DNA of 64,000 bases from Candidatus Terraquivivens tikiterensis. GTDB taxonomy: Archaea; Thermoproteota; Nitrososphaeria_A; Caldarchaeales; Wolframiiraptoraceae. Below, one piece after another: positions 2,569 to 49,084 of the stretch; the first letter of the stretch is position 1; every line of letters begins with the position of its first letter. A program made the position numbers and the translations under genes. A model generated the notes under the pieces. The model was not told where the DNA came from and did not search any database. It was given only the letters and a program-made list of their open reading frames with translations. Location of the stretch: NCBI GenBank assembly GCA_003056285.1, contig NDWU01000006.1:1543-65542 (forward strand). Direction: 5' to 3'.

Positions 2569-4335
2569 TTGGCAGGTGATATGGTCTCAGCTATGGCGTC
2601 GAGGTATCGACTCCTTTTTAGGATGCCGAGCCCGAAAGCGGTTATAGCGTCAATAATCTCTCTCTCCTTGCTGACGGCTATGCTCATCTCCACCCGTATG
2701 GGCACGCCGGGTTCGGTTCCGTATCTCTGTGGTTTACTTTTATTTTCATCCATAGGGATGAACGTGCTATTCAAGAAGAGCCTCCTGAAAAATGAGCCCG
2801 TATTCTCGCTCAACAGGATGAACACCCTATCCTTCGTCCAACTGGCGCTTTTATTCTCGGGCACACTCATAGGGTTTATAGTATCGCTCATTACGGACAA
2901 CGCTTTGTACCTAATCGTTACGATGTACGTTGGGCTACAAATCTCAAGTTTCATAAGCTTTTCGACGTTTATGGCGCTCAAGTTCAGGCGGCTCTCTTTA
3001 CCATACATCTTTTTACCGACGCTCATGCAGGCAACGGGAATAGCGCTCATTTTGGGACTAGACTTTGGCGTAGCGGCATCCTTGACTTTAGCCTCCTACG
3101 GGCTAGGAATCGTAGCCTCTACGCTCACGTTATCTGCGATAGAAGTCTTTGGCAAAATTTTGGGCCAGTCTCCTTTTAAATTCCTTAGAGGTTTTGTCCT
3201 CAGCATGCTCGAAGGGGATAGCTCCTATATTGAGGGGCTACTTTGCAAAATCAGCAAGCCAACAGACATAATCGTCGACACATTACTCTTCAGAGATAAG
3301 GAGAAAAAAACCAGTCTACTGTGCGTCGTCGTGCCACGCTTCCATCCTGGACCAGTAAGGTCGATAGGGGGCAGCATAACGCCGTACATCATAGAAAGAA
3401 CGTTCGCGGCTGCTGGCCTAGAGGCGGCGGTCCTTAAGGGGTTGTCTGGACATGAAATGGACATAGCGTCGCGTGAAGATGGCTTGATGCTAGCCAAGCA
3501 ACTTGTCGATTCCTCACTCAAAGCATTCGAGGAAGACGGCTTTAGCGGAATGTCCCTGAAGCCAATGACGATAGCATCGGGTAAGGCAACGGCAAACGTC
3601 TTTGCCTTAGACGGTGTGAAGGTTGCCGTAGTAAGCCTCCACCCTAACCCGATGGAAGACCTGCTTCCCAGCTTGCTACCACGAGAATCGAATAAAATCG
3701 TTATCATAGATGCGCATAACTCTTTTGCAGAGCAAGGCGGAAATCAATTCAATTCAAAATTTGATGACGTCGTGGACTTGATGGAGAAGATAGACTCGCT
3801 TCCTTTATATGAAAATTTTAAGGATTTTTCCATAGGTTTTTCAAGGATAGTACCGAAAGATTACGGGCTGAACGACGGATTAGGTCCGGGTGGAATATCT
3901 TGCTTGGTAATAGGGGTTGACGGGGAGGAATTTGTCTACATAATCGTAGACGGTAACAACGCCCTACCGCAGGTAAGGTCTTTGGTGCAGGATGCTCTAC
4001 GTAAAGAAGGGGCCTCGGGTAGCGAGCTGCTGACGACGGACTCACACCTCGTTTGCGCCATGAGCCTGGGAGGTAGGGGTTACCATCCAGTCGGCGAGGT
4101 ACTGGCGCCAGAGGTCATCGCGGAATACGCAAAGCGTTTGTACAATCAAGCAAGAGCCTGCATGAGACCGGCTGAAGCACGCCACCAAAGGTTGACGATA
4201 AAGGATATAAGGGTGTTCTCAGAAAGCGTAATCAACTATATGGCAAAAAGCACGATAAGGTCTTTTAGGATTTTCATAATCGGTATGCTATCTAGCATCG
4301 TGGTATCGTCGCTGATGCTGCTGGTATTTATATAG
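2569..4335 (+). CDS. polytopic membrane protein with large soluble C-terminal domain and terminal TM (DUF2070-like)
   Basis: 588-aa ORF with a hydrophobic N-terminal third, a soluble domain and a final TM. The family name is from memory of archaeal DUF2070 architecture. Confidence 0.75.
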   Translation: MAGDMVSAMASRYRLLFRMPSPKAVIASIISLSLLTAMLISTRMGTPGSVPYLCGLLLFSSIGMNVLFKKSLLKNEPVFSLNRMNTLSFVQLALLFSGTLIGFIVSLITDNALYLIVTMYVGLQISSFISFSTFMALKFRRLSLPYIFLPTLMQATGIALILGLDFGVAASLTLASYGLGIVASTLTLSAIEVFGKILGQSPFKFLRGFVLSMLEGDSSYIEGLLCKISKPTDIIVDTLLFRDKEKKTSLLCVVVPRFHPGPVRSIGGSITPYIIERTFAAAGLEAAVLKGLSGHEMDIASREDGLMLAKQLVDSSLKAFEEDGFSGMSLKPMTIASGKATANVFALDGVKVAVVSLHPNPMEDLLPSLLPRESNKIVIIDAHNSFAEQGGNQFNSKFDDVVDLMEKIDSLPLYENFKDFSIGFSRIVPKDYGLNDGLGPGGISCLVIGVDGEEFVYIIVDGNNALPQVRSLVQDALRKEGASGSELLTTDSHLVCAMSLGGRGYHPVGEVLAPEVIAEYAKRLYNQARACMRPAEARHQRLTIKDIRVFSESVINYMAKSTIRSFRIFIIGMLSSIVVSSLMLLVFI

Positions 4336-11801: not shown

Positions 11802-11832
11802 CCTTTAACTCTTACTCAGGTTTATGTCTAAA
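11802..11832 (+). repeat. 31-bp perfect direct repeat, copy 1 (cctttaactcttactcaggtttatgtctaaa)
   Basis: Identical 31-mer at 14001-14031. Flanks are also similar (about 11795-11843 vs 13994-14043). Confidence 0.9.
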
Positions 11833-12464
11833 GCGCCTTACCAAAACTCAGCGAGAAAGCCCGCGCCCTTTAGGTATTGGATGAATCTCCAAATTAATTT
11901 TAAATTCTCTGAGCAAGCCGCTCGGATGCGGCCTGGACGTACAAAAGCCCGAAAAAGCGGAGGCTCGGGCGGTATAGAGCCTCTCGGTTATGGAGATACT
12001 CTCAACGGCTGATGGCGCACTCATTTCAGATAGCCTTGGAGCGAATGCTATTGCAGACGTGCTTCAGGGCGCTGAAGGGACTGCGTGCAAGAATTCCCAT
12101 AGCTGAAGCTCGTGGGAATGCTAATCGGAACCCAATAGCCCCGAATAGTTCATAGAGAAACCCGCTCATCCAAGTAACTTGAGAAGATAACCTCCTTAAT
12201 ACTCAAATGCGACACTAGAGCTGACATGGTAGTCTAAAAAGCCTAGCAAAAGAGAAGAAAGAATTGTTGGAGACAATACTTAGCTAGAATAAAATCTCCT
12301 GATCTGATGAAGTAGTTTAAAATTTGGTTTCTTTAAAGTGAAAAGAAGGTGTAAAACACAGAGATGCACCTCTATTTATTATTGTTTTTTGGTTTAACGG
12401 TTTGTTTTTTAGGGGGTAAATTCTTATATTGTGGGCGAATTTCATATTTGTGGGTAGTATTTTT

Positions 12465-14000: not shown

Positions 14001-14031
14001 CCTTTAACTCTTACTCAGGTTTATGTCTAAA
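14001..14031 (+). repeat. 31-bp perfect direct repeat, copy 2
   Basis: Identical to 11802-11832. Confidence 0.9.
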
Positions 14032-14115
14032 ACCGTCTTACCGCCAATCTGGCCGACGATTTTAGAGCCATGAGGGTGGCATACTCGTACCGGCGTGAGA
14101 GACCCTCTGGAGAGA

Positions 14116-18035: not shown

Positions 18036-18464
18036 GCTACCGACGACGGAACCGTCGGCTTCCGCCAAGCCCCAAGCCTACAGCCTCCATAGCTGTTCAT
18101 GTGCTTTGAAAGGCTTTTAGGGCTGTACCACACCAAGTCCTTATCTTTATTGCACCTCTGGATTTACGGGACGGATCGCATACCGACACCATTACCTGCA
18201 GGCTGACAAAGGTAGGGTAAAAATGAAGCTCCTGTTATAACACTAGACGTTACGGAGTTTCCGCCGCGATGTTAAGGCTGGCATGTTCTGCTTTTTTTAA
18301 AACGCTAGCATTTTATAAAACGTAACTTGACTCAGCTTTCGCGGTATGATGAGAGCAAAAAGGAGATACTCACGACCTCGCTGCTCACGTTATAAGCGTC
18401 GCTCATCTGCTCAATAGCTGTGGCATATGAACATTAAAATATTTGCGGACAAATTTTTTTACCG

Positions 18465-18698
18465 ATGAATTGGATAATGATAATAGGTCTAATTCTGCTA
18501 CTTGCAAGCATCCTCATAATAATGCTCGCGGTAAGGCTTCTAGGGAGCCTAGGCGGCGAAGGAAAGGCCCGTTTCGGCGGCGTCGTCCTGTTAGGGCCAG
18601 TACCTATATTTTTTGGCGATAGGAGCCTTTTCAGCGTCCTCCTAATCGTTGCAGCGATTTTTGTAATAGCTTTCATAATTTTTTCACTCATATGGTGA
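18465..18698 (+). CDS. small membrane protein, DUF131/TIGR00304-like
   Basis: Two TM helices flank GGVVLLGPVPIFFG. Confidence 0.7.
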   Translation: MNWIMIIGLILLLASILIIMLAVRLLGSLGGEGKARFGGVVLLGPVPIFFGDRSLFSVLLIVAAIFVIAFIIFSLIW

Positions 18699-18738
18699 TT
18701 TTTATCACCGTTGCCCAGAAAGCCTAGAGCTTTAGCCC

Positions 18739-18851
18739 TTGGATGGGTTGGCAAAACTTAAATACGCTCGAGTACCCTTTGGGTTTAGTACATTCTGATG
18801 AGCCATGAACCCGTATATCCCATGCGTTAACGGGTGCATGGGATGGCGGAG
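18739..18851 (+). repeat. copy A of TATA + conserved-hairpin leader element (partner 20675-20771, inverted)
   Basis: Shares with the reverse complement of copy B the 14-mer caaaacttaaatac, tttgggtt(t/g)agtac, and the hairpin CCCAUGC-loop-GCAUGGG followed by the identical atggcggag. Confidence 0.65.
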
Positions 18852-18946
18852 GGTGAGCCAGCGACCGGCAGATGCGGCTGGAGGCTCAAAGCCCATGTTT
18901 TCGGTCAAGGGAGGCTTGCGGCAACATCCGGTGAGGTGACGAATTC

Positions 18947-19225
18947 ATGGAAAGCTCCTTAAAACGAGGCCCAGAGCCGTTGAGGACCATCATGCTGTTA
19001 ACCGTCGGCATAGTCTTAGCGTTCATCGCAGTATTTTTGATCCTCGTAAGCATACTTCCAACACCGTCTGCCGACGTAAAAGGGGGTGCCTTCCTCCTGA
19101 TAAGCCCATTCCCGCTCGTGCTGACGTTCGACAAGCCCACGTTCTGGCTGTTACTGCTTCTGCCCATTCTGTTCATCCTAATTCCCCTGATACTATTCCT
19201 AGCGTGGCTAAGGGTTTTGAGCTAA
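18947..19225 (+). CDS. small membrane protein, divergent DUF131-like paralog
   Basis: TM-GGAFLLISPFPLVLTF-TM layout parallels 18465-18698. Confidence 0.6.
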   Translation: MESSLKRGPEPLRTIMLLTVGIVLAFIAVFLILVSILPTPSADVKGGAFLLISPFPLVLTFDKPTFWLLLLLPILFILIPLILFLAWLRVLS

Positions 19226-19300
19226 GCATGCATGCGAATATACCCAATGCCTGGCCTTTTTACCTCACAGGCCTAGCATTCCTATGGTTCATCGGGCTAG

Positions 19301-19579
19301 GTGAGCCTCTTTACGATTCAGACTAAGGCTTATATCTTGGCTAATCTGGATATAGAACAGCTGGAGGTTAAGATTCTGCGCTTCTGTCCAGACTGCGGCG
19401 GAACGATGTTCTACGACAGGGAAACGAGGCAATACGTATGCAATAGCTGTGGTGCTTCCTATACGATACAAGAGCTTATCGTAAGGAGGGAGAGGGAGCT
19501 GGCCCTAAAGGATGAGCAGGAAAGAAGGAAAAGACAGAAGGAAGAATATTTGGCATGGTGGCTCAGTAAGAAGAAATAG
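19301..19579 (+). CDS. zinc-ribbon protein with basic coiled C-terminus
   Basis: FCPDCGGTMFYDRETRQYVCNSCG, then an RRERELALKDEQERRKRQKEE tail. The start is uncertain. Confidence 0.6.
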   Translation: MSLFTIQTKAYILANLDIEQLEVKILRFCPDCGGTMFYDRETRQYVCNSCGASYTIQELIVRRERELALKDEQERRKRQKEEYLAWWLSKKK

Positions 19580-19585
19580 CTAGCG

Positions 19586-20587
19586 TCAACAGTCTTCGCG
19601 ATCGATCACTATCTCTTCCAGTGGACGAACATCGTTTGGTTTCCAGAAAGGCTCCCTTAGATAAACCGCTTTTAGGAATAGCCTTTCAAGCTCCTCATCT
19701 GAGGCACCGCTCCTCATCGGTGTCAAAAAGTCCACTAGGTTATCATCCCTCATCAAGCACGGTTTAAATTTTCCATCGTGCGTTATCCTTATCCTTGAAT
19801 CGTTCATGCAGAAATCGCAGTTTCTCATCGGTCTTACAAGTTCAACCCAGACGTTTTCAGGTAAAAGGTATTGCCTCCTCAAATGCAGTTTACGCGTTAC
19901 GCATTTTATTGCCCTCCTTTTAATAGCTTCCTCTACCGGTCCGAGGTTGTAATAATATTTTTGGAAAAACTCAGCACTCGATGCTTCACCTTCATGAACC
20001 AGCTCTATCAACTGGAGTATGCAGTTGTCATGCCCGAAAGCTTTCACGAAATTAATCATGTCATCTATCTCATCCTCGTTTACTCCCTTCATAACCACGA
20101 CGTTAAGCTTCACGGTCTCCATGCCAGCATCCAGGGCCGCTTTTATCGCATCTATCGTATACCTAAGCCTGTTTTCCCCGTCTACAGACCTCGTTCCGGT
20201 TATCCAGCAAAACTTTTGCGGGTCTACGGTGTGCAGGCTGATGTTGACCCTGCTTAGGCCGGCCTCGCGTAGCCTTTTCGCAAGCTGTGGAAACCGCGTA
20301 CCGTTCGTCGTCATAGAGATTTCTTTAAAGTTAAGGCCATGTAGCCTCTCAACTATCTCGACGATGTCGTTCCTAAGCATGGGCTCGCCCCCTGTCAGCT
20401 TGACGCTCTCGATGCCGAATTTCTTCAAAACCCTCATTACCCTCTCTATCTCTTCTGGCGTCATAGAGGTATCCGTGTTCTCGTAAACGCCTTCCATGTG
20501 GCAAAAGATGCACCTAAAGTTGCACTTAGCACTTGGGGTGAGCGATATCCTGACACCGTTAACTGGCCTGTTATACCTATCTAACAG
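19586..20587 (-). CDS. moaA: GTP 3',8-cyclase MoaA (radical SAM), start codon unresolved
   Basis: The track ORF (to 20497) lacks the cluster motif. The in-frame upstream extension encodes LLDRYNRPVNGVRISLTPSAKCNFRCIFCH (CX3CX2C). The only in-frame start candidate before the upstream TGA (20600-20602) is CTG 20585-20587. Confidence 0.85.
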   Translation of the reverse strand: MLDRYNRPVNGVRISLTPSAKCNFRCIFCHMEGVYENTDTSMTPEEIERVMRVLKKFGIESVKLTGGEPMLRNDIVEIVERLHGLNFKEISMTTNGTRFPQLAKRLREAGLSRVNISLHTVDPQKFCWITGTRSVDGENRLRYTIDAIKAALDAGMETVKLNVVVMKGVNEDEIDDMINFVKAFGHDNCILQLIELVHEGEASSAEFFQKYYYNLGPVEEAIKRRAIKCVTRKLHLRRQYLLPENVWVELVRPMRNCDFCMNDSRIRITHDGKFKPCLMRDDNLVDFLTPMRSGASDEELERLFLKAVYLREPFWKPNDVRPLEEIVIDREDC

Positions 20588-20674
20588 GCGCGTGCTCTTT
20601 CACCCTTCCACGTGAGCATGTTTTAAACGAATTTGGTTCCTGTTGCATACGACACCCTTTCCAAGTCGCCACGG

Positions 20675-20771
20675 CTCCGCCATCCCATGCCCCTCGTTAA
20701 CGCATAGGCTATAGGGGCGTACTCAACCCAAATAGTATCCAAGGGTATTTAAGTTTTGTCCGTTCATCCAA
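20675..20771 (-). repeat. copy B of TATA + conserved-hairpin leader element (upstream of moaA)
   Basis: See copy A. The stem has a U-G wobble only when read on the minus strand, toward moaA. Confidence 0.65.
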
Positions 20772-20839
20772 CCCTCGATAAGGGGATTGGTTAACGGAGC
20801 AGAAAGCCCTCGAACGACATAACCAATGCTCGTCCATCC

Positions 20840-23602
20840 TTAGAATAAGCTTTCCAATTTTTCCATAACCTCGTGAAACCTTTCTGAGTAGGGCGCCCCA
20901 CCCTGCCCCAAGTCCGGCTTTCCTCCACCCCTCCCTCCTAATGCCGATGAAACCTTTGACGCGATCCGGCCCGCATCTACGCCTAACCTTACAGCCTCCC
21001 CGTTTGCCATCGTCAGGACCCTCAGAGATTCTGTTCCAGCGAAGAGTATCGTCACGGCTGGTCCGGACATCCTGCTAAGAACCTCTGCAGCCAAGGATAT
21101 CAGGTAATCTTTATCGTCGATCTCCTCATAGCCCTTAACCACGGCTACATCGCCAACCTTTTCAACAGTAGAGATTAGCTCGATAGCTCTCTTCTTCGCA
21201 TAGGATTCCACCACCCTCTTAGCAAACTTCCTGGCCTCCTTTAGTTCCGTTATCAACTCCTCAGCCTTCTTATCCAGCTCCGATGTAGGGACCCCTAGGA
21301 CTTCGGCGGCTTTTTGGACAATCCTATCCTGCTCCTGGAGGTATGGTAAGGCAGAAGGCCCAGCGGCGAATATAAGACGCTCTACCCCATCCTGTATTCT
21401 CTCGGTTTTTAATATCTTTATGATTCCCACGTCCTCCGTATTCTCGCAATGTAAACCGCCGCATGCCTGAGCATCCCAACCTGGAATCTCGACAACCCTT
21501 ATCACGGCGGATGGTACCTCACCACCCTGATAAAGACGGAAGCCGTAGCGCGCCTCGGCCTCGTTCCTATCCATCATGCGGACGTGGATGGGAATGCCTC
21601 TCTGGACTACATCGTTCGCTAAGGATTCAATCCTTTGGACTTCCTCCAGCGTTAGCCTCTTATGATGGGATATGTCTAGCCTCGCCTTATCCGGCTCCTT
21701 TTTAGCGCCGGCCTGCCATACATGCTTCCCCAGGACTTGCCTCGCTGCGCTTAGCAGTATGTGGGTCGCCGTATGGTGCCTCATTATCTTTAACCTTCGC
21801 TCGATATCGACCTCGCCTACGACGACCTCGCCCTCGGCGGGCCTCGCTCCTAAAAACTTATGCAGGATGACACCGTCTACGAGTTGTACGTCTACTATCT
21901 TGCACTCGCCTGTGCTGAAGCGAAGGATTCCGGTGTCGCTGACCTGGCCTCCGCTCTCGGCATAGAATAACGTCCTGTCCAAGATAACGTATTCACCAGA
22001 AACCCTTAAAACCTTTGCCTCGAACTTCCTTTCTAATGGAGAGTCGTAGTAGAGCTTAACCGTCGGGCTCAAACCTTGAACGATGACCTCGATATCTTTT
22101 CCTACGCTGGCAACAGTCGGCGCTTCCTGCAAATGCCTAGATGCGACGTGCTCGTAAAAATTCTCGGGCACGTCAACCTTGAGCTGTAGCTTATGGGCAA
22201 TGCGCTCTACTATATCCGGCGTTATGCCCTTTTCATCGTAAACCTTGACGAGGAAATCGAGTGGGATCGTGTCCGAACGTCTCTTTATGCTCGCCAACTC
22301 CCTCTCGACGTACGCCGTCCCCTTATCTATCGTTTCTTTGAATTTCGAAACCTCTGTCGATACGATGTCCAGAACTTCGTCTCGCATCTCCGCAAGGTAA
22401 GGGAAGTCATCCGACCAGTAATCGATCTGCATCTCGATTAGCTCTGCCAGTCTGTCCTCGTGGCCTATTGCCTGGAGAACCCTGTATGCCTTCCTGAGCA
22501 ACAGCCTTGCTAAGTACCCCGATTTGGCGTTAGATGGCACTATGCCCTCGGAGAGTATGAAGGTTATAGATTTCGTGTAATCGAGGGATGCGAAAAACTT
22601 CTCCAGCGGTACTATTAATTTTTCGATAGTCTCGACGGGTATGCCGGAGGCCTTTGCAATCCTCCTCCTTACTTCGGCGATGCTCGTACCCTCCTTGGGT
22701 GTAACGATGGCCGTGTAGGGAGAGTAGGCATCGAGTATGCTCTCATCTGGCATCTCGACGCCAAGCATGTCCATTGCCCTTTTGTAAAGTTCTCCATAGA
22801 CCGCCTCGAACGAGCTGTGCGTTCCTTGACTGAACCAAGCATACCTCTCGATACCGTAACCCGTGTCCACGGTTCTTATCGGTATCTCGACGAGCTCGCC
22901 GTCTAACGTCTTGTAGTGCATGAAGACAAGGGTTGCTAGCTCCAACCCCTCTGACACAGTCTCGAAGCAAGGGCCAGCATTGCCACCTCCAGACCATACG
23001 GACTCCTTGTAGGTTATCCTATCCTCCCTTATGCCGAGCTCCCTCGTCGCAAACTCGTGGTGGTACTGGACCGTAGTATCCTTCCAGTAAACCTCCTTGT
23101 CGGGATAGTTGAAGGCATGCGCTCCACCCATCTCGAATATCGTCAGATGCCTGCCGAACGTAAGGCCAACCTTGTCTATATCCACGAGCCTAATACACGG
23201 CTGGCTCACGACTAAGGGGTTGGCGGGCGGAGGCGCTATGCCCGACGTAACCCATGGCTGGAAGTCTACGATGCTCGCCGACACGAGATACAGGTCGGTC
23301 CTCCATCTGGGCACGACCGGGTAAGGCTTTATTATCTTATGGCCCTTCCTCTCGAAGAACTTTAGGAACTTTTCCCGTACATCCTTCAGCGTTAGCCTAT
23401 CGTTGGTCAGCCTTTTCCCTATAAAAGTATAGGGAACGCACGGTGATTCCCCACAGACATCTCTATCGGCGTCGAGCGTCCAAAAATACTCACCACAGAC
23501 TGTACATTTCTTTCTAGTAAAACCATTGTTTATAAAAAATTCTAGTTTGTAAGCCTCCGGCGGAAAACTCATGAGGCTTGGCACCATCAAAGCGCTAGCC
23601 AA
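20840..23602 (-). CDS. alaS: alanyl-tRNA synthetase (archaeal type)
   Basis: 920 aa with N-terminal [10 protein letters not shown], the editing-domain HHTATHIL motif and a C-terminal DHHA1-like GGRGGGKP. Confidence 0.95.
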
Positions 23603-34362: not shown

Positions 34363-34452
34363 GGGCCCGTAGCCTAGCAAGGACAGGGCGCTGTGCGGAG
34401 GCGCGCAAGCCTTCGGAGCCGGAGGTCGCGGGTTCGAGTCCCGCCGGGCCCG
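34363..34452 (+). tRNA. tRNA-Arg(UCG) with a 15-nt intron inside the anticodon stem (29/30)
   Basis: Acceptor GGGCCCG/CGGGCCC, D arm GCCU-AGCAAGGACA-GGGC, T arm GCGGG-UUCGAGU-CCCGC. The anticodon arm CUGGC-CUUCGGA-GCCGG forms only after removing 34394-34408, leaving 75 nt mature. Confidence 0.75.
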
Positions 34453-34717
34453 CTCCTAATTAAGTGCAAATCGCTATATAGAAGTGCACCTCTTAGGCTT
34501 GACATAAGTACTTCACCTCTCTCAAGCGAGGGCTGCACTTGTCTTAAGGAGTGTTTGGAGGAAAGGATTAGAAGCTATGAGGAGCTAAAGCCCCTTGATA
34601 GCCCATGAGCGAAAATAGGTTGCGGAAAAGCCACTCATAATGACGAAAAAGATAACCACTTTATAATGCAGTGCATGAGAAAAGCCGGAGTTTATAAAAT
34701 GCTGTATGTTCTTATAG

Positions 34718-43077: not shown

Positions 43078-43374
43078 GGGGCGTGTGGCCCGTAGTCCTC
43101 CTTCTGTTTTAGGCGGGATTTGTCTAATCGGCACCGAGGCCTCGTGGGGGCAACTCAAAGGCCTCGTCTGCCTTTCCCGCGCGGGCCGCCCGTTCCACTC
43201 GCTCCCGATGCCTCGTCAGCGGCTTCTGGCCGCATCAAGCTCATCGACATCGGGGGATATCGTTTCTGGTGCGTTGCCAGGGGTCTCCCCCTACGCCTCG
43301 CGGCGTCGCGCGCCCCCGCTCGGGGGAGGAACTTCCGCAGGAGCTCCCCGAGACCCGCCCAGCCACTCGCCCCG
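43078..43374. ncRNA. GC-rich, highly structured ~300-nt RNA candidate (identity and strand unresolved)
   Basis: The ends pair (43078-43089 with 43362-43373, 11 of 12 bp), followed by a second 8-bp helix (43110-43117 with 43354-43361) and many internal perfect hairpins. Its GC resembles the rRNA/tRNAs rather than coding DNA. Overlapping ORFs translate to R/S/P/G-rich nonsense. Confidence 0.5.
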
Positions 43375-44574
43375 TTAAATCGAAGCTAGAATCGCTAATT
43401 AGGCTTTTCCCGGCCGCTAGTGAAGCTTTATAAAGCCAGCTAAATGCTTCGTGAAGGAATGCAATACCTAGTTAAAATATCTTGTTTCCAATAACCAAAA
43501 AGCCTTATTAATGACCATCAAGAATTGAATGATTGCCAAAGCGTTGTATGAAAGCTGCCGGTCTTGGACCGGTTTGCTCGATGCGGGAGTAAGTGAAGCT
43601 TACTGTGACCGCGCTCAAAGGCCTGGAGACGTCGCCAGCTGGGCGGCGTGGAACGCCTAGGCCAGGGTACGCCAGCCGGTGGATAACTCGGCTTGGGCGC
43701 CGACGAAGGGCGTGGCAAGCTGCGATAAGCCCCGGGTAGCCGCATGCAGGCGTCGATCCGGGGATGCCCTAATGGGATTTCCTGCAGCCGGTCGCGCAAG
43801 CGGCTGGCTGCGTACCGCGTTATGCGGTACGGGAACCCCCCGAACGGAAACATCCAAGTAGGGGGAGGAAAAGAAACCAAAATGGGATTCCCTGAGTAAC
43901 GGCGAGTGAAAGGGGAACAGCCCAAACCGAATCCCTACGGGTGACCGTAGGGAGATGTAGGGTTATGGACCGGTCGCCCGCTTAGCCCGCAGAGCCGAAG
44001 CGACCTGGAAAGGTCCGCCATAGAGGGTGAAAGCCCCGTAGGCGAAGGCGGGCTAAGGGAAGGACCGGTATCCAGAGTACCGTACCTCGGATATGGTGCG
44101 GGAAGTTGGGAGCCATCGGCTTCCAAGGCTAAATACGTCCCAAGACCGATAGCGCACCAGTACCGTGAGGGAAAGTTGAAAAGAACCCCGGGAGGGGTGT
44201 GAAAAGCGCTTGAAACCGGCTGGTAACAGACGAGTGCGGCCTGAAAGGGCAATCCACCCGAAGGCTTCCTTCTGGGAGCCGAGGGTGGATACCAGGGTCG
44301 CACGCTCCGTCTTGAAACACGGGCCGGGGAGTTCATGGCCATGGCGAGCTTAAGCGCTCACCAAGGCGCGTAGGCGTGGGGAAACCGACATGCCCGCAAC
44401 CAGGGTTTTCCCTGGTGAGGGGCGGGGTCCGAAAGGGCCTGGAGTCATGGCCATGAGACTAGAAACCGGGCGATCTAGCCCTGGGTAGGGTGAAGCCGGG
44501 CGAAAGCCCGGTCGAGGCCCGAAGGGGTCTTGACGTGCAATTCGGTCCTCTGACCCGGGGCTAGGGGCGAAAAA

Positions 44575-44609
<35 letters not shown>

Positions 44610-45066
44610 GTGAGTCGCAGCTCAGCCTCCGGCGAGGTAGCCCAGGGGGTAGAGCACCGATAGGGGGGTAAGGGCTCGAAAGGGCCCGCCTTCCTTTCGA
44701 ACTCCGAATACCTGGGCGCCGTAGACCCGGGGAGTGGGGCATGGGGGGTAAGCTCCCATGCCGAGAGGGGAACAACCCAGACCTAGGGTTAAGGCCCCTA
44801 AGTGCCCGCTAAGTGACAAACCAAAGGGCGTCTCCAGCCTAAGACAGCGGGGCCGTAGGCTTAGAAGCAGCCATCGGCTAAGAAGTGCGTAACAGCTTAC
44901 CCGCCGAGGCTGGGGGCCCCGAAAATTGACGGGTCTAAGCGGGCCGCCGAAACCCTGGTCCACCAAGCGTGTGCTTGGTGGAGGTAGGAGGGCGTGACGG
45001 TTGGGCAGAAGCCGGGCCGTGAGGTCCGGTGGACCGACCGTCAATGTAGATCCCGGTGGTAGTAAC

Positions 45067-45098
<32 letters not shown>

Positions 45099-45586
45099 GG
45101 GGCAAGGGTCTCCTGGCAATGCGTCGTCAGCCAGGAGTAAGCCGGTCCTAAGGCCGACCTTAACCGGGTAGGCCGAAAGGGAAACCGGTTAAGATTCCGG
45201 TGCCTCCGGGATACGTGCGGCGACGCAAGCCCAGCCTCCGACGCTTCGGGGTAGGCCGAGCCGGGCCGTAGCCCGGTCTAACCGTATAAGCCTGGGGAGT
45301 GCCGTAAAGGCGAGAACCAGGTGAAAGCGGGAATGGCCGCCCGTATGGGCGGTTCGGCTGATCCCTGGAGCCCGTGAAAAGGGGGCTGGGAAGGATTCCC
45401 GGAGACCGTGCCAAGAACCGACACAGGTGCCCCTAGGTGAGAAGCCTAAGGCGTATCGGGTCACTCCGGGGTGAGGGAACTCGGCAAATTGGCCCCGTAC
45501 CTTTGGTAGAAGGGGTGCCTGCGGCCCTGGTGGAGACACTGGGGCCGCAGGTCGCAGTGACCAGGGGGTCCCGACTGTTTAATAAA

Positions 45587-46189
45587 CGGACAAAGGCACC
45601 GGCCAAATCTTTAAATATTATATCTATAGAAAGTTTATGAGGTGTACATCGACCCATACATTGTCGGTATCTTCTTTGGAGATGGAGTTACATATAAAAC
45701 CAAACACGGTGCATACTGCGTTTGGATAGACCAAAAAGACAAAAATAAGGGCATTCTAGAAAGCGAGGTTATTCCAAGGCTTAAAAAGATGGGCCTCAAA
45801 GTATACTTTTATAGCTATTACGCAAAAGCTGACCGCACTTTGAAGTGGCGTGTCTTAACGTACTCAAAAGAATTGTACATGGCAATTCGTAGCATCTCCA
45901 GAAGGATAGCAGAATACTTCAGTACTCTTTCGGATAAAGATGCAACGCAGTTTATCGCAGGCTTCTTCGACGCTGAAGGCACGAAAACGGACAGGATTGT
46001 AATATACAATCAAAACCTTGAACTTCTTAAGATAGTAAAGCAGAGGTTGATAAACTTAAGCATTCAAAATCCTCACATCTACAGATTTGGGTCGATTTAT
46101 GGATTACAAATATACTGTAAAAGATCTGTGAAAAAATTTCTAGAGTTAATCCCTTCTTGTAGGCTAAAGGTGCGCTTGTCCGGTTAAAA
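45587..46189 (+). other. 23S rRNA intron 1 (archaeal splicing type)
   Basis: Interrupts GACUGUUUAAUAAA|AACAUAGG. The intron ends pair (cggacaaaggcacc / ggtgcgcttgtccg). The boundary is ambiguous within the A-run. Confidence 0.8.
45642..46187 (+). CDS. LAGLIDADG homing endonuclease, two-motif, apparently intact
   Basis: IVGIFFGDGV and FIAGFFDAEG motifs in a 181-aa ORF wholly inside intron 1. Confidence 0.85.
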   Translation: MYIDPYIVGIFFGDGVTYKTKHGAYCVWIDQKDKNKGILESEVIPRLKKMGLKVYFYSYYAKADRTLKWRVLTYSKELYMAIRSISRRIAEYFSTLSDKDATQFIAGFFDAEGTKTDRIVIYNQNLELLKIVKQRLINLSIQNPHIYRFGSIYGLQIYCKRSVKKFLELIPSCRLKVRLSG

Positions 46190-46317
46190 AACATAGGAAG
46201 CCGCAAGACCGAAAGGTTTTGAACGGCTTCTGAATCCTGGCCAGTGGGGGTACCTGAAACCCGGGTCCAACCGGGCTAAGGGCCCCTAAACGCCGGGAGT
46301 AACTCTGACTCTCTTAA

Positions 46318-46878
46318 CGGGACCTCCCCACCCCTTAGAGACATATTTTAAATAAAGGTGATCGATCGTTAGCTATGACTGGCGAGCTTGAGAAAGGCTA
46401 CGTAAGTGGTTTAATTGACGCCGAAGCCAGCTTTTCAGTAAGCGTAAAGGTTCAAAACAATTTACGTTGCAAGGTTCGCGTCGATCCAGTTTTCAGTATA
46501 ACACAAATGAGCAGAAAACCGTTAGAAATTGCTCAGAGGGTCCTTGGTTGCGGCAGGATAATACGAAAACCCGGTCAAACACATCTATGGATGCTCGTTG
46601 TGGACCGTTTAGATGATCTCTCTCAAAGATTGATTCCGGCCCTAAACGAACTTAAATTAATATCTAAAAATCTGTATACGGTTTGTTTCGAGAAGTAGTT
46701 TTTAAGCTAGCTAGAAAGAAATACTCCTTAACCTGCAAGGATATTAGAGAACTAGTGATAATGGCTTACAAATTATCAGAACTTAACTCGAAATCCACTC
46801 GTAAAAGGTCTCTTAAAGATACTCTTTCCCTAATTCCTCTCTCGGATAATCATGGGGGTGGGCAAGGCCCGGGAGAAA
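46318..46878 (+). other. 23S rRNA intron 2
   Basis: Interrupts CUCUUAA|GGUAGCCAAAUGCC. Confidence 0.8.
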
Positions 46879-46883
46879 GGTAG
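46375..46883 (+). pseudogene. single-motif (I-CreI-like) LAGLIDADG endonuclease split by a 1-nt frameshift near 46680-46690
   Basis: YVSGLIDAEASFSV is in the first frame (to 46698). The C-terminal part (..FREVVFKLARKK...LSELNSKSTRKRSL..) is in a second frame from 46683. Confidence 0.7.
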
Positions 46884-47400
46884 CCAAATGCCTTGTCGGG
46901 TAAGTTCCGACGTGCATGAATGGATCAACGAGGGCCCCACTGTCCCCACCCGGAGCCCGGTGAACCCACGTAACGTGGGCGAACAGTCCACGAGCCCCCA
47001 GCGGGGAAAGAAGACCCTGTGGAGGTTTACTGCAGCCTGCTGCTGGGATGCGGTCGGAGGCACAGAGCGTAGGCGGGAGCCGTAGATCCCAACTCCTCCG
47101 GGAGTTGGGGGAGGCGCCGATGTAACACCGCCTGCCTTTGGCTGCATCCCTGACCGGGGCCGAGGCCCTGGGACAACGGCAGGTGGGCAGTTCGGCTGGG
47201 GCGGCACCCCCTTGAAAAGATATCGAGGGGGCCCAAAGGTCGGCTTAGGCGGGACAGAAACCCGCCGTTAAGTGTAAGGGCAAAAGCCGGCCTGACTGGA
47301 CCCTTGAACGCAAGGGGTCCAGAGGCGAAAGCCGGGCCTAGCGATCCTTCAACTCCCACCGATGGGGGTTGGAGGTGACAGAAAACTTACCCCAGGGATA

Positions 47401-48039
47401 CTGCGCGCATCGCCCGATTCCTGCCAAAACCCTTTTAACCGGGTGTCTACAAAAAAGTTAAGATTACTATGGATCTTTCCGACGACATATATTTCTTGGT
47501 GGGAGCATTGGAGGATGGATATCTTGGCATGCGGAAAAGTAAGGGAGAATACCTCATAGAATTTTATCAAAAGAATGAGGCTTGGCTGTCCAATGAGATA
47601 CTGATGAGATTAAGATGAGATTAAATAAGAATGGATTCAACACCTCAGTAATATTACAAAGTGGCGGTCTATTCGAAGAAGCTTTATACGATGCTTCAAA
47701 AGGCGAAAAAGCATTTGTATGTACAACTAACGAAGACAGACCTTGACGATAGGAGGACCTTAGGTTACGTCCAAGCGATGTTTGATAGTGAAGGAGCGGT
47801 TCACAAAAACTTAGCTAGAATAACTCTCTGGAATAAGGATGAAAATAAACTTAAGTTGGTTAAGAGGTTGTTAGAGAAAGCCGGCATAACTTGCGGCAAA
47901 ATAACTAGGTCGAGAAACGTTTACGGACTTCCGATTTATGGTAAGGATAATTTAGTTTTATTTGCGAAAAAGATAGGATTCAGACACCCGGTTAAGAGGG
48001 CAAGGTTGGCAGGTAAGGGCGCCTTGGCGCAGCCCTAAA
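47401..48039 (+). other. 23S rRNA intron 3
   Basis: Interrupts CCAGGGAUA|ACAGGCU. The intron ends pair (ctgcgcgc / ggcgcag). Confidence 0.8.
47469..48038 (+). pseudogene. two-motif LAGLIDADG endonuclease broken by a stop and a frameshift
   Basis: MDLSDDIYFLVGALEDGYLG... stops at 47616-47618. The second half (..YVQAMFDSEGAVH..) is in another frame from 47661. Confidence 0.7.
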
Positions 48040-48104
48040 ACAGGCTCGTCGCGGGCGAGAGTTCCCATCGACCCCGCGGCTTGGTACCTCGATGTCGGCT
48101 CTTC

Positions 48105-48136
<32 letters not shown>

Positions 48137-48149
48137 CGGCTGTTCGCCG

Positions 48150-48192
<43 letters not shown>

Positions 48193-49084
48193 ATCGGATT
48201 TTACCTGCTGGGGGTGCTGGCTGCCTGAGGGGAAGGTGCTCCCAGTACGAGAGGAACGGAGCGCCGGGGCCAACGGTTTACCGGTTGTCCTACAGGGCAG
48301 AGCCGGGCAGCTGCGCCCCTGCGGATAAGGGCTGAAAGCATCTAAGCCCGAAGCCGCTCCCGAAAATAGGCAGCCAATCCGGAGCTTAGGGCCTGGCAAC
48401 AGGCTCGTGCTCCGGACGAGAGCCCCCGTAGAAGACGGGCTTGATGGGGTGGAGGTGTACGGGCGGAGGCTTTGGCCGGACGCCCTCAGCCTGCCACTCC
48501 CAAAAGCTCGAGTGGCCTAGGAACGTCACGCCGCCTGGGCGAAAACGTCTCCGGCCTTTGGGCGCGGCCTTGTAGTGTGCCGAAGAGAAAGGTAATATGC
48601 TTTGGTTACTTTAACCTTGACTTCCATTTAGCAAACAGGGCTCGACAGCAATTTCTGAACAGTTAACTCCTCATAAAAGTTCAGAGTATACTCTACTGTA
48701 GAAGCGTCACCAATATCCCGTTCAGTCGCTATACGAATGGCGAAGCTAGGAAGCTCCTAGAGGACTTCAGGGACATGTTAACTTCTGCATAGACTATGCC
48801 GTCAAAAAGAGGGTAACGTCATATGCCAAGCTTATGAGGGGCGCATACGTGGATTGGAAAAGGCGCCGGGACTACTCGAATAATCCAAAGGGAAAGATAT
48901 GTGGTGGAAGGTTGGCAGCGAATGGGCATGGGTTAGTAAGGTGTAGCGTGGATACGAGAACGATAGGGATGCTATTGCATGCTTGAACATGATGTAAACG
49001 GCTACCCGGCATATTTTTATTTTTGGAAGATAACTCAAGCTCTAGTATCGTTTGGCAACGTTAGCTGAAAATCCAGCACGCTCC

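What the first reader, a model, noticed from the sequence alone, without database searches (positions are those of the whole stretch)
18739..20771. Inverted pair of TATA + conserved-hairpin leader elements driving a convergent module (DUF131-like/Zn-ribbon vs moaA)
- **Shared sequence:** 18739-18851 (plus) and 20675-20771 (minus) share, in order, ttggatg, an identical 14-mer caaaacttaaatac (BRE/TATA-like), tttgggtt(t/g)agtac, a 7-bp hairpin (CCCAUGC..GCAUGGG vs CCUAUGC..GCAUGGG) and an identical gcatgggatggcggag.
- **Strand evidence:** the one stem difference is a U-G wobble only on the strand pointing at the downstream gene (C-A on the other strand). Loop lengths differ, and copy A carries a ~19-nt insertion.
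- **Not coding:** no reading frame is conserved, so this does not look like coding sequence.
- **Position:** each element lies about 95-185 nt upstream of a gene start (18947 plus; moaA 20587 minus).
- **Interpretation:** the layout looks like a shared cis-regulatory 5' leader or small RNA. I know of no archaeal leader motif linked to Moco biosynthesis.
Basis: seen in the sequence. Interest (0 to 1): 0.62.

Follow-up and report, generated by a model that had tools for sequence, protein, structure and literature searches.

The report
Two decayed gene-less transposon remnants
The two "promoter plus hairpin leaders" are worn-down, gene-less copies of an archaeal IS200/IS605 (TnpB) insertion sequence that landed in two intergenic spacers, which is ordinary mobile-element debris and not a molybdenum-cofactor regulatory RNA.

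Summary

The interpretation does not hold. The hairpin and the 16-mer are the last codons of a tnpB gene (…NIAYALTRxMGW…), which is also the 5' stem of its guide (omega) RNA. The same DNA closes full-length 407-aa TnpB genes in other archaeal MAGs.

The upstream blocks (TTGGATG, CAAAACTTAAATAC, TTTGGGTTKAGTAC) are the left end of the same insertion sequence:
- a two-stem imperfect palindrome with a GGATGAA loop;
- the tnpB BRE/TATA box;
- the tnpB 5' UTR.

So both copies have the layout left end, internal deletion, tnpB 3' stub. That is a PATE-like non-autonomous IS200/IS605 element.

Supporting points:
- Four syntenic relatives (moaA 80-84% identical) lack both copies.
- Each copy follows a (T)TTAT.
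- Both have lost the right-end hairpin.
- A sister strain carries substitutions inside the "invariant" blocks.
- Other related fragments are multi-copy in the source metagenomes.

Their tnpB promoter may still fire towards DUF131-2 and moaA, but nothing requires this. There is no link to Moco.

This is a known kind of element and of low interest.

The parts
18701..18705 (+). TTTAT immediately 5' of element A. Inferred target / transposon-adjacent motif.
   Evidence: A TTTAT or TTAT lies 5-10 nt upstream of the left-end outer stem in L029, L030, L033, L034, L035 and copy A. It is an inference from conservation and was not tested.
18706..18929 (+). Element A: a PATE-like, tnpB-less IS200/IS605 derivative of about 224 nt. 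The right boundary is approximate.
   Evidence: It fills the spacer between the two DUF131 genes. That spacer is 248 nt here and about 42 nt in relatives L002, L004 and L005. The relatives' SD-ATG region resumes at about 18930.
18711..18754 (+).
   Evidence: A left-end profile built only from other genomes hits 18699-18763, E 2e-4. The two-stem fold is shared with full-length elements and the stem sequences covary. The core 18713-18744 is multi-copy in the metagenomes.
18752..18765 (+). BRE/TATA box (CAAAACTTAAATAC), which is the tnpB promoter of the element.
   Evidence: It aligns with GTAAAAGTTTAAATA, which lies 26 nt (end of the TATA box to the ATG) upstream of the tnpB ATG in full-length L029.
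18778..18791 (+). TTTGGGTTTAGTAC: remnant of the tnpB 5' UTR and initiator region, just before the deletion joint.
   Evidence: It sits at the same distance from the TATA box as GGTTTGGGATGTTCCC-ATG in L029. The sequence similarity is modest and the match rests on position.
18792..18808 (+). 17-nt segment specific to copy A at the deletion joint (ATTCTGATGAGCCATGA).
   Evidence: It is a gap in copy B in the pairwise alignment. Its origin is unknown.
18815..18899 (+). Stub of the tnpB 3' end, equal to the 5' two-thirds of the omega-RNA scaffold. Includes the hairpin CCCATGC (18819-25) / GCATGGG (18836-42) and the 16-mer (18836-51). Frameshifted.
   Evidence: nhmmer with profiles from other genomes: 18815-18898, E 1.6e-13. 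A tail-only profile that excludes the fishing pattern hits 18864-18899, E 6.5e-4, the best hit in the window. The peptide MGWRRVSQRPADAAGGSKP compares with MGWGSCEPPKPADEGIGVKP.
20649..20818 (-). Element B: a second copy of the same PATE-like element, about 170 nt. Boundaries are inferred.
   Evidence: It fills the alaS-moaA spacer, which is 252 nt here and about 100 nt in relatives. The flanks GAGCATTGGTTAT| and |ATGCAACAGG match consecutive sequence GCATTTAT|ATGCCACC in relatives. An alternative right-flank alignment exists.
20819..20822 (-). TTAT 5' of element B. Inferred target site, corresponding to TTTAT in the relatives' distal TATA-like box.
   Evidence: Comparison with L002, L004 and L005. 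Inference only.
20760..20797 (-). Left-end imperfect palindrome of B. Outer stem CCGTT (20797-93) / AACGG (20764-60); inner hairpin CCAATCC..GGGTTGG; GGATGAA loop (TTGGATG 20771-65).
   Evidence: The predicted fold has the same two-stem layout as L029, L030, L033 and L035, with different stem sequences.
20745..20758 (-). BRE/TATA box of B, identical to that of A.
20719..20732 (-). TTTGGGTTGAGTAC: tnpB 5' UTR remnant in B.
20670..20712 (-). Stub of the tnpB 3' end in B (IAYALTRGMGWRS). Hairpin CCTATGC (20708-02) / GCATGGG (20690-84). Truncated about 35 nt earlier than in A.
   Evidence: nhmmer 20712-20670, E 1.9e-10, profile positions 6-48 only. tblastn to the L029 TnpB gives 10 of 11 residues. 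In other contigs of the same metagenome this piece is preceded by ...NRDLNACVN (loose ends).
20620..20628 (-). Proximal TATA-like box GTTTAAAAC upstream of moaA. It lies outside the element and is conserved in position with the relatives' AAATTTATTTTAC.
   Evidence: Its presence means moaA need not depend on the element's promoter.

Best explanation
Both copies are decayed members of one family of non-autonomous, gene-less (PATE-like) derivatives of an IS200/IS605-family insertion sequence that encodes the RNA-guided nuclease TnpB.

**Layout of each copy, in order:**
- the element's left end, a two-stem imperfect palindrome with a conserved GGATGAA internal loop, of the kind recognised on single-stranded DNA by a TnpA Y1 transposase supplied in trans;
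- the tnpB BRE/TATA promoter and the start of its 5' UTR;
- a deletion joint that removed nearly the whole tnpB gene;
- the last codons of tnpB (IAYALTRxMGW…), which in intact elements double as the first stem-loops of the omega (guide) RNA.

**History.**
- Shown: both copies share the same deletion joint, and both are absent from related genomes.
- Inferred: the mini-element transposed as such into two spacers of this lineage, each time 3' of a (T)TTAT.
- Shown: both copies have lost the right-end terminal hairpin and the guide-adjacent end. Copy A keeps about 85 nt of the 3' module and copy B about 40 nt. Copy A is frameshifted.
- Inferred from that: they can no longer move or make a working guide RNA.

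- The 'conserved hairpin' and its G-U wobble on the sense strand are inherited from the tnpB/omega-RNA strand.
- The 'identical' blocks are what 82% identity produces by chance.

**Present-day effect (inferred).** At most, residual outward transcription from the tnpB promoter into DUF131-2 and moaA. Most likely they are neutral passengers.
For: **1. The hairpin block is the end of tnpB.**
- The pattern ATGCGTTAAC-N3-7-GCATGGGATGG recovers seven archaeal MAG loci and one bacterial locus.
- In L028, L029 and L030 it is the 3' end of an intact TnpB of about 407 aa, reading …CPRCSLTYNRDLNAAINIAYALTRRMGWGSCEPPKPADEG…*.
- That protein matches Pfam Cas12f1-like_TNB (E 1.9e-19) and RuvC_1.

**2. Profile searches built only from those foreign loci.**
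- Copy A is hit at 18815-18898 (E 1.6e-13) and copy B at 20712-20670 (E 1.9e-10).
- A profile of the tail alone, without the fishing pattern, still finds copy A at 18864-18899 as the best hit in the window (E 6.5e-4).

**3. The upstream blocks are the left end.**
- Full-length elements (L029, L030) and gene-less ones (L033, L034, L035) share this order: TTTAT, outer stem, AGAAAAC, inner hairpin, GGATGAAT, TTTAAATA, then about 25 nt to the tnpB ATG.
- The stems covary: ACCGCAA/TTGCGGT, TCGCAA/TTGCGA, GCCCA/TGGGC, TTCGCCA/TGGCGAA, copy A TTGCC/GGCAA, copy B CCGTT/AACGG.
- A left-end profile hits copy A with E 2e-4.

**4. Gene-less elements with the same junction exist elsewhere.** L033, L034 and L035 join the left end to the same point just before TAGCCYATGCG.

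**5. Relatives lack both copies.** L002-L005 keep the order glpA-coxG-NUDIX-DUF131-DUF131-…-Zn ribbon-moaA-alaS without either element.

**6. Metagenome contigs.**
- The left-end core 18713-18744 has depth 850-1240, against 106 and 17.7 for the host contig.
- The tnpB 3' piece is also multi-copy, and there it is preceded by NRDLNACVN.
- A strain about 98% identical carries both elements, with substitutions at 18786 and 18843 inside the 'invariant' blocks.

**7. A third left-end-like element** with a right-end-like hairpin lies at 11848-12127 of the same window.

**8. Literature.** PATEs formed by deletion of the IS605 core are documented in archaea (PMC3119063). PATEs that keep omega-RNA sequence are noted in PMC10055086.

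**9. Earlier unchecked notes** on other pieces of this genome describe many IS605-derived mini-elements.
Against: - No intact tnpB or tnpA with this left end was found in the 64-kb window. The autonomous parent in this organism is therefore not identified.
- The right-end hairpin that defines a complete PATE is missing from both copies. Membership rests on the left end and the tnpB 3' stub.
- Exact boundaries, the (T)TTAT target and the mode of insertion are inferred. Copy B's left end lies 21 nt from the TTAT, against 5-10 nt elsewhere. An alternative alignment of its right flank exists.
- Part of the profile E-values is inflated, because the comparison loci were fished with a 21-nt pattern taken from the window.
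- A second 6-bp stem covaries between A (ACCCGT/ACGGGT) and B (GCCCCT/AGGGGC). It is absent from full-length elements and is unexplained.
Confidence: 0.88

Rival explanations
1. Exapted promoter. The elements are IS-derived, but their tnpB promoter now serves as the promoter, or an extra one, of DUF131-2 and/or moaA. The omega-RNA stub then becomes part of a long 5' leader. This adds to the best explanation and does not exclude it.
For: - Both elements point at the downstream gene, and the BRE/TATA box is the best-preserved block.
- Under the preferred alignment, element B sits inside the relatives' distal TATA-like box, GCATTTAT|ATGCC.
- Element A separates two DUF131 genes that are 42 nt apart, and presumably co-transcribed, in relatives.
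- Both elements are kept in a strain about 98% identical.
Against: - moaA keeps a proximal TATA-like box (GTTTAAAAC, 20628-20620) at the position conserved in relatives.
- DUF131-2 keeps its Shine-Dalgarno sequence and could be read through from DUF131-1.
- In the sister strain, element A differs about twice as often as its flanks: 8 differences in 252 nt, against about 30 in 1970 nt.
- No RNA data exist.
Confidence: 0.22
2. One reading: a dedicated cis-regulatory leader, riboswitch or small RNA shared by a Moco-related convergent module.
For: - It has a promoter, a hairpin and an invariant 16-mer upstream of moaA.
- Two overlapping alternative stems exist in both copies, one of them with two compensatory changes (read directly from the sequence).
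Against: - Every shared block is accounted for by the IS left end and the tnpB 3' end.
- It is absent upstream of moaA and DUF131 in four syntenic relatives.
- The same sequence ends TnpB genes in unrelated archaea.
- There is no Rfam hit, even at E up to 10.
- The 16-mer is mutated in a sister strain.
- DUF131 has no known link to Moco.
Confidence: 0.03
3. Stand-alone omega-RNA genes. The mini-elements are kept because each makes a guide RNA that a TnpB encoded elsewhere uses in trans.
For: - The promoter sits directly upstream of the start of the omega-RNA scaffold. All gene-less relatives keep exactly this part.
- PATEs that encode omega RNAs acted on in trans are discussed in PMC10055086.
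Against: - Both window copies lack the 3' third of the scaffold, including the conserved terminal hairpin (…CTCCC…GGGAG-TAGCTCAC) and the guide-adjacent end.
- Copy B keeps only the first stem-loop and the 5' strand of the second stem.
- In copy A the second stem (GGCGG…) has lost its partner strand.
Confidence: 0.04
4. Local inverted duplication or gene conversion. One copy was generated from the other by recombination within this 2-kb region and not by transposition.
For: - There are only two copies within 2 kb, in inverted orientation.
- No other copy of the central junction region was seen at 80% identity or more in the X1 metagenome contigs.
Against: - Each copy has its own flanks and follows a (T)TTAT, like elements in other genomes.
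- The genes between them keep the ancestral order and orientation.
- Divergence is 18%, with independent truncations.
- Related ends are multi-copy in the community.
Confidence: 0.06

Closest known systems
PATEs (palindrome-associated transposable elements), the non-autonomous derivatives of IS200/IS605 elements. Described in Haloquadratum walsbyi (PMC3119063); PATE-like elements in Geobacillus stearothermophilus (PMC10055086).
   Same: - Too short to encode a protein.
- No terminal inverted repeats.
- A subterminal palindrome related to that of full-length IS605-type elements.
- Origin by deletion of the core, leaving fused ends.
- Retention of omega-RNA sequence.
- Location in intergenic spacers.
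- No target duplication evident.
   Different: - Both copies here have lost the right-end palindrome, so they are relics and not complete PATEs.
- The family (left-end consensus, TTTAT target, TnpB tail AYALTRxMGW) comes from thermophilic TACK/Asgard-type archaea, not from haloarchaea or Bacillota.
- The parent element in this genome was not found.
TnpB omega-RNA / reRNA (ISDra2, PMC8612924) and archaeal sotRNAs of IS1341-type tnpB genes (Rfam RF02656 and RF02657, as cited in PMC12558985).
   Same: - The hairpin and 16-mer lie where the guide-RNA scaffold begins, inside the last codons of tnpB and on the sense strand.
- The stem tolerates G-U pairs only on that strand.
- In intact relatives the distance from the hairpin to the element end is about 125 nt, which is a typical scaffold length.
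   Different: - The window copies hold only the 5' part of the scaffold and have no guide-adjacent end.
- No TnpB is nearby.
- There is no match to the haloarchaeal Rfam models.
Moco riboswitch (Rfam RF01055).
   Same: Only the position upstream of a moaA gene.
   Different: - No sequence or structure match.
- To my knowledge the Rfam family is bacterial; this was not checked here.
- The element here is absent from moaA upstream regions of close relatives.
IS-borne outward promoters that activate neighbouring genes (general knowledge of bacterial and archaeal insertion sequences).
   Same: An element-internal promoter is oriented towards a host gene in both copies.
   Different: Activity is untested here, and moaA retains a proximal TATA-like box of its own.

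Membership tests
IS200/IS605-derived non-autonomous element (PATE) | Sequence homology of the ends to full-length IS200/IS605 (tnpB-bearing) elements | tested here: met
   - Left-end profile: copy A, E 2e-4.
- 3' module profile: copy A E 1.6e-13, copy B E 1.9e-10.
- Pattern-free tail profile: copy A E 6.5e-4.
-. The full-length references are L028-L030.
IS200/IS605-derived non-autonomous element (PATE) | Subterminal imperfect palindrome at the left end, no terminal inverted repeats | tested here: met
   The two-stem palindrome with a GGATGAA loop is present in B and partly decayed in A. It has the same layout, with covarying stems, in L029, L030, L033 and L035.
IS200/IS605-derived non-autonomous element (PATE) | Subterminal palindrome at the right end | tested here: not met
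   The conserved right-end hairpin plus TAGCTCAC of L028, L030 and L034 has no counterpart in A or B. The copies are therefore filed as truncated relics of such elements, not as complete PATEs.
IS200/IS605-derived non-autonomous element (PATE) | Too short to encode a transposase or TnpB | tested here: met
   The elements are about 224 and 170 nt. They hold only frameshifted or truncated tnpB tail codons.
IS200/IS605-derived non-autonomous element (PATE) | Insertion 3' of a short specific target without target-site duplication | tested here: inconclusive
   (T)TTAT precedes both copies and most related elements. The boundaries are inferred from comparison with relatives only, and a TGTCGT repeat flanks B.
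IS200/IS605-derived non-autonomous element (PATE) | Presence/absence polymorphism or multiple copies, as evidence of mobility | tested here: met
   Both are absent from the same spacers in L002-L005. There are two copies with one shared deletion joint. Related ends are multi-copy in the metagenomes.
Functional TnpB omega-RNA gene | Complete scaffold reaching the element's right end, followed by a guide | tested here: not met
   Profile matches stop at position 93 (A) or 48 (B) of the 3' module. The terminal hairpin is missing.
Functional TnpB omega-RNA gene | Cognate TnpB available | not testable with these tools
Earlier unchecked notes mention TnpB genes elsewhere in the genome.
Moco riboswitch (RF01055) or any Rfam cis-regulatory family | Match to the covariance model | tested here: not met
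   There is no match at gathering score in the window. Nothing relevant appears at E up to 10 in 18400-21000.
Archaeal BRE/TATA promoter | BRE (RNWAAW) followed by an A/T-rich TATA box about 25 nt upstream of a transcription start | tested here: inconclusive
   GCAAAA-CTTAAATA fits the consensus and is homologous to the box upstream of intact tnpB. No transcript data are available.

The most novel reading that the evidence does not exclude
Promoter capture in an archaeon. Element B landed in the distal TATA-like box of moaA, and element A landed between two co-transcribed DUF131 genes. The surviving tnpB promoter, with the omega-RNA stub as a structured 5' leader, would now drive or co-regulate both genes flanking this convergent module. 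That would explain why the promoter block is the best-preserved part and why both relics persist in sister strains.
Probability: 0.18. Interest if true: 0.35.

Novelty: new member of a known kind. Interest (0 to 1): 0.14.

Why it matters
Mainly as a caution. In archaeal genomes rich in IS200/IS605 debris, a 'promoter plus conserved hairpin' repeated upstream of unrelated genes can mimic a regulatory RNA family. Here it is the left end and guide-RNA stub of a dead transposon.

It also records two smaller points:
- An undescribed family of TnpB elements and their gene-less derivatives is shared, with striking DNA-level conservation of the tnpB 3' end, across several archaeal lineages (MAGs labelled Thermoproteota, Bathyarchaeota, Nitrososphaeria, Odinarchaeota, Baldrarchaeota).
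- If the element promoters are active, this would be a small example of IS-derived promoter donation in an uncultured thermophile.

It does not bear on Moco or tungsten-cofactor regulation.

Tried and rejected
- **Rfam.** Scans at gathering score (whole window) and at E up to 10 (18400-21000) gave nothing relevant.
- **tRNA, split-tRNA and C/D-box ideas.** ARAGORN finds nothing here. The UGAUGA lies only in the A-specific 17-nt insert.
- **H-type pseudoknot or riboswitch.** I considered one built from the two overlapping stems (ACCCGU/ACGGGU with CCCAUGC/GCAUGGG). It is rejected as a simultaneous fold because there is no linker between the stems. The first stem is absent from full-length elements.
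- **Leader peptide** (MGWR…). This is simply the tnpB tail.
- **CRISPR repeat** as the source of the high-depth 32-mer. Rejected once the left-end architecture was seen in L033 and L035.
- **Exact-protein look-up of moaA.** Not on record.
- **Plasmid and phage collections.** Only chance hits.
- **Earlier findings by sequence.** None.
- **RNA runs.** None available.
- **Residual A-B similarity at the right ends.** Not above shuffles.
Full report
**1.

The repeat finder reports three collinear inverted-repeat segments:
- 18739-18791 / 20719-20771;
- 18810-18832 / 20695-20717;
- 18833-18851 / 20675-20693.

The pairwise alignment shows the blocks TTGGATG, CAAAACTTAAATAC, TTTGGGTTKAGTAC, YATGCGTTAACG and GCATGGGATGGCGGAG. 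Copy A has a 17-nt insert and a 1-nt deletion. The 14-mer and the 16-mer each occur only at these two places in the window.

Identity is 78 of 95 aligned positions, or 82%. At that identity, two exact runs of at least 16 and at least 14 nt appear in 22% of simulated random decays. The block pattern therefore does not by itself indicate selection.

No Rfam family matches, either at gathering score or at E up to 10. ARAGORN finds no tRNA here.

**2. Context**

The window belongs to an uncultured archaeon from a hot-spring metagenome. Its LSU rRNA carries large insertions, and an archaeal RNase P RNA is present.

The local genes, in order:

| Gene | Strand |
|---|---|
| glpA-like FAD dehydrogenase | + |
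| CoxG-like | + |
| NUDIX | + |
| DUF131 (18465-18698) | + |
| **copy A** | + |
| DUF131-like (18947-19225) | + |
| Zn-ribbon protein (19301-19579) | + |
| moaA (about 20587-19586) | - |
| **copy B** | - |
| alaS (23602-20840) | - |

**3. Relatives lack both copies**

A scan for moaA relatives gave four syntenic metagenome contigs with 80-84% MoaA identity, L002-L005. Gene order and orientation are the same there. The spacers differ:

| Spacer | Relatives | Window |
|---|---|---|
| DUF131 to DUF131 | about 42 nt | 248 nt |
| alaS to moaA | about 100 nt | 252 nt |

None of the shared blocks occurs in the relatives. Both copies are therefore insertions in the window's lineage.

**4. What the hairpin block is**

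An exact scan of the species-representative genomes with ATGCGTTAAC-N3-7-GCATGGGATGG returned eight loci. Seven are archaeal MAGs labelled Odinarchaeota, Baldrarchaeota, Thermoproteota, Bathyarchaeota (three) and Nitrososphaeria.

- In L028, L029 and L030 the pattern lies in the last codons of an intact protein of about 407 aa. It ends …CHKCGYV…FKCPRCSLTYNRDLNAAINIAYALTRRMGWGSCEPPKPADEGIGVKP…*.
- Pfam calls that protein Cas12f1-like TNB domain (E 1.9e-19) plus RuvC. It is a TnpB of an IS200/IS605-family element.
- Copy B still reads IAYALTRGMGWRS in that frame.
- Copy A reads the same with a 1-nt deletion, then MGWRRVSQRPADAAGGSKP. The TnpB tail is MGWGSCEPPKPADEGIGVKP.

Profile searches, with profiles built only from the foreign loci:

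| Profile | Hit in window | E-value |
|---|---|---|
| 3' module | copy A, 18815-18898 | 1.6e-13 |
| 3' module | copy B, 20712-20670 | 1.9e-10 |
| Tail only (excludes the fishing pattern) | copy A, 18864-18899, best in window | 6.5e-4 |

The loci were fished with a pattern from the window, so the first two E-values are partly inflated. The tail-only profile was the control for this.

In TnpB elements the 3' end of the gene plus the right end encodes the omega/reRNA guide scaffold (PMC8612924). In archaea these RNAs were first called sotRNAs (PMC12558985).

- Its C/U and UUU variants pair with G only on the sense strand.

**5. What the upstream blocks are**

Upstream of intact tnpB (L029, L030), and at the 5' side of gene-less elements in L033, L034 and L035, the same layout recurs:

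1. TTTAT or TTAT;
2. 5-10 nt;
3. an outer stem;
4. AGAAAAC;
5. an inner hairpin;
6. GGATGAAT;
7. TTTAAATA;
8. about 25 nt;
9. GGGATGTTCCC-ATG, the tnpB start.

The stems differ in sequence but keep pairing:

| Locus | Outer stem |
|---|---|
| L029 | ACCGCAA / TTGCGGT |
| L030 | TCGCAA / TTGCGA |
| L033 | GCCCA / TGGGC |
| L035 | TTCGCCA / TGGCGAA |
| copy A | TTGCC / GGCAA |
| copy B | CCGTT / AACGG |

- TTGGATG is the internal loop of this left-end imperfect palindrome.
- CAAAACTTAAATAC is the tnpB BRE/TATA box.
- TTTGGGTTKAGTAC is the remnant of the tnpB 5' UTR.

A left-end profile from foreign loci hits copy A with E 2e-4.

The gene-less elements in L033, L034 and L035 and both window copies all join the left end to the tnpB 3' end just upstream of TAGCCYATGCG. 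This is the PATE architecture:
- IS605-type elements reduced to fused ends (PMC3119063);
- often still carrying omega-RNA sequence (PMC10055086).

A and B share the same deletion joint, so they descend from one mini-element.

**6. State of the two copies**

Intact relatives end with a conserved hairpin and TAGCTCAC. Neither window copy has it.

- Copy A matches profile positions 6-93 only.
- Copy B matches positions 6-48 only.

They are immobile relics and cannot encode a complete guide RNA.

Logan contigs of two metagenomes add three points:
- The left-end core 18713-18744 has depth 850-1240. The host contig has depth 106 (X1) and 17.7 (X2).
- The tnpB 3' piece occurs in many other contexts. 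There it is preceded by …NRDLNACVN.
- A strain about 98% identical carries both elements, with substitutions at 18786 and 18843 inside the 'invariant' blocks. Element A differs about twice as often as its flanks.

A third left-end-like element with a right-end-like hairpin lies at 11848-12127 of the same window. Earlier unchecked notes on other pieces of this genome describe many IS605-derived mini-elements and TnpB remnants. I read those notes after reaching my own reading.

**7. Insertion sites (inferred)**

- Copy A follows GATTTTTAT (18701-18705).
- For copy B, the flanks GAGCATTGGTTAT| and |ATGCAACAGG match consecutive sequence GCATTTAT|ATGCCACC in the relatives. That would place the insertion in a distal TATA-like box.
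- The right flank of B also aligns, less parsimoniously, with the relatives' SD/start region. The exact boundary is therefore uncertain.
- moaA keeps a proximal TATA-like box (GTTTAAAAC, 20628-20620) at a position conserved in relatives. It need not depend on the element's promoter.

**8. How it works**

*Past (inferred from the family).* Mobilisation as single-stranded DNA by a TnpA supplied in trans. Recognition of the left-end palindrome. Insertion 3' of (T)TTAT.

*Present.* Most likely inert. The only plausible activity is residual transcription from the tnpB promoter into DUF131-2 and moaA. I rate that at about 0.2. No RNA data exist.

A Moco-related leader is not supported. A trans-acting guide RNA is unlikely because the scaffold is truncated.

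**9. Verdict and limits**

This is a new member of a known kind, and of low interest.

The genome-wide copy number and the autonomous parent are therefore unknown.
- One oddity is unexplained. A second 6-bp stem carries two compensatory differences between A and B (ACCCGT/ACGGGT versus GCCCCT/AGGGGC). It straddles the deletion joint and is absent from full-length elements.

Noticed in passing
window 20585-20603; L002 about 3895-3925; L004 about 3895-3925: moaA has no ATG, GTG or TTG between the upstream in-frame TGA (20602-20600) and its CxxxCxxC motif. Only a CTG (20587-20585) and an ACG are available. The same holds in L002. L004 has a GTG further in, at the V of NGVRIS. A short out-of-frame GTG ORF (GTG at 20603-20601, about 8 codons) overlaps the start region and is conserved in the relatives.
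   Followed up: partly
window 11802-12160 and 14001-14047: A third IS605-type left-end-like module lies at 11848-11939 (nhmmer E 1.5e-3). About 200 nt later comes a right-end-like hairpin, TTCCCA-TAGCTGAAGCTCG-TGGGAA + TGCTAAT (about 12092-12134). It sits at the left edge of a 2.2-kb vapBC cassette bracketed by a direct repeat of about 45 nt that contains GTTTAT.
   Followed up: partly
L028 (MAG labelled Odinarchaeota) and L029 (MAG labelled Baldrarchaeota): The TnpB element is about 99% identical between the two MAGs, and the flanking DNA upstream of the left end is nearly identical too. This suggests the same or a very close organism under two labels, mis-binning, or very recent transfer.
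   Followed up: no
L004 5196-5915 (also L002, L005): Relatives carry a 239-aa metallophosphoesterase-like gene between DUF131-2 and the Zn-ribbon gene. The window lacks it.
   Followed up: no
window 43654-48523: The LSU rRNA match spans 4870 nt for a 2987-position model. That implies about 1.9 kb of insertions, presumably introns. An RNase P RNA gene lies immediately upstream on the opposite strand (43081-43370).
   Followed up: no
window 34363-34453: ARAGORN reports a 91-nt 'tRNA-???' with a 2-nt anticodon. It is probably an intron-containing tRNA that neither ARAGORN nor the Rfam tRNA model resolves.
   Followed up: no
window 18809-18835 and 20718-20691 (minus strand): A 6-bp stem straddles the deletion joint and carries two compensatory differences between the copies: A ACCCGT/ACGGGT, B GCCCCT/AGGGGC. 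It overlaps the tnpB-derived hairpin and is absent from full-length elements. It is unexplained.
   Followed up: partly
L032 2525-2548 (Verrucomicrobia MAG): This is the only bacterial hit to the fishing pattern. It has no tnpB context around it (…RRMGWCCQ… in a short frame). It is probably a chance match or an isolated fragment.
   Followed up: no
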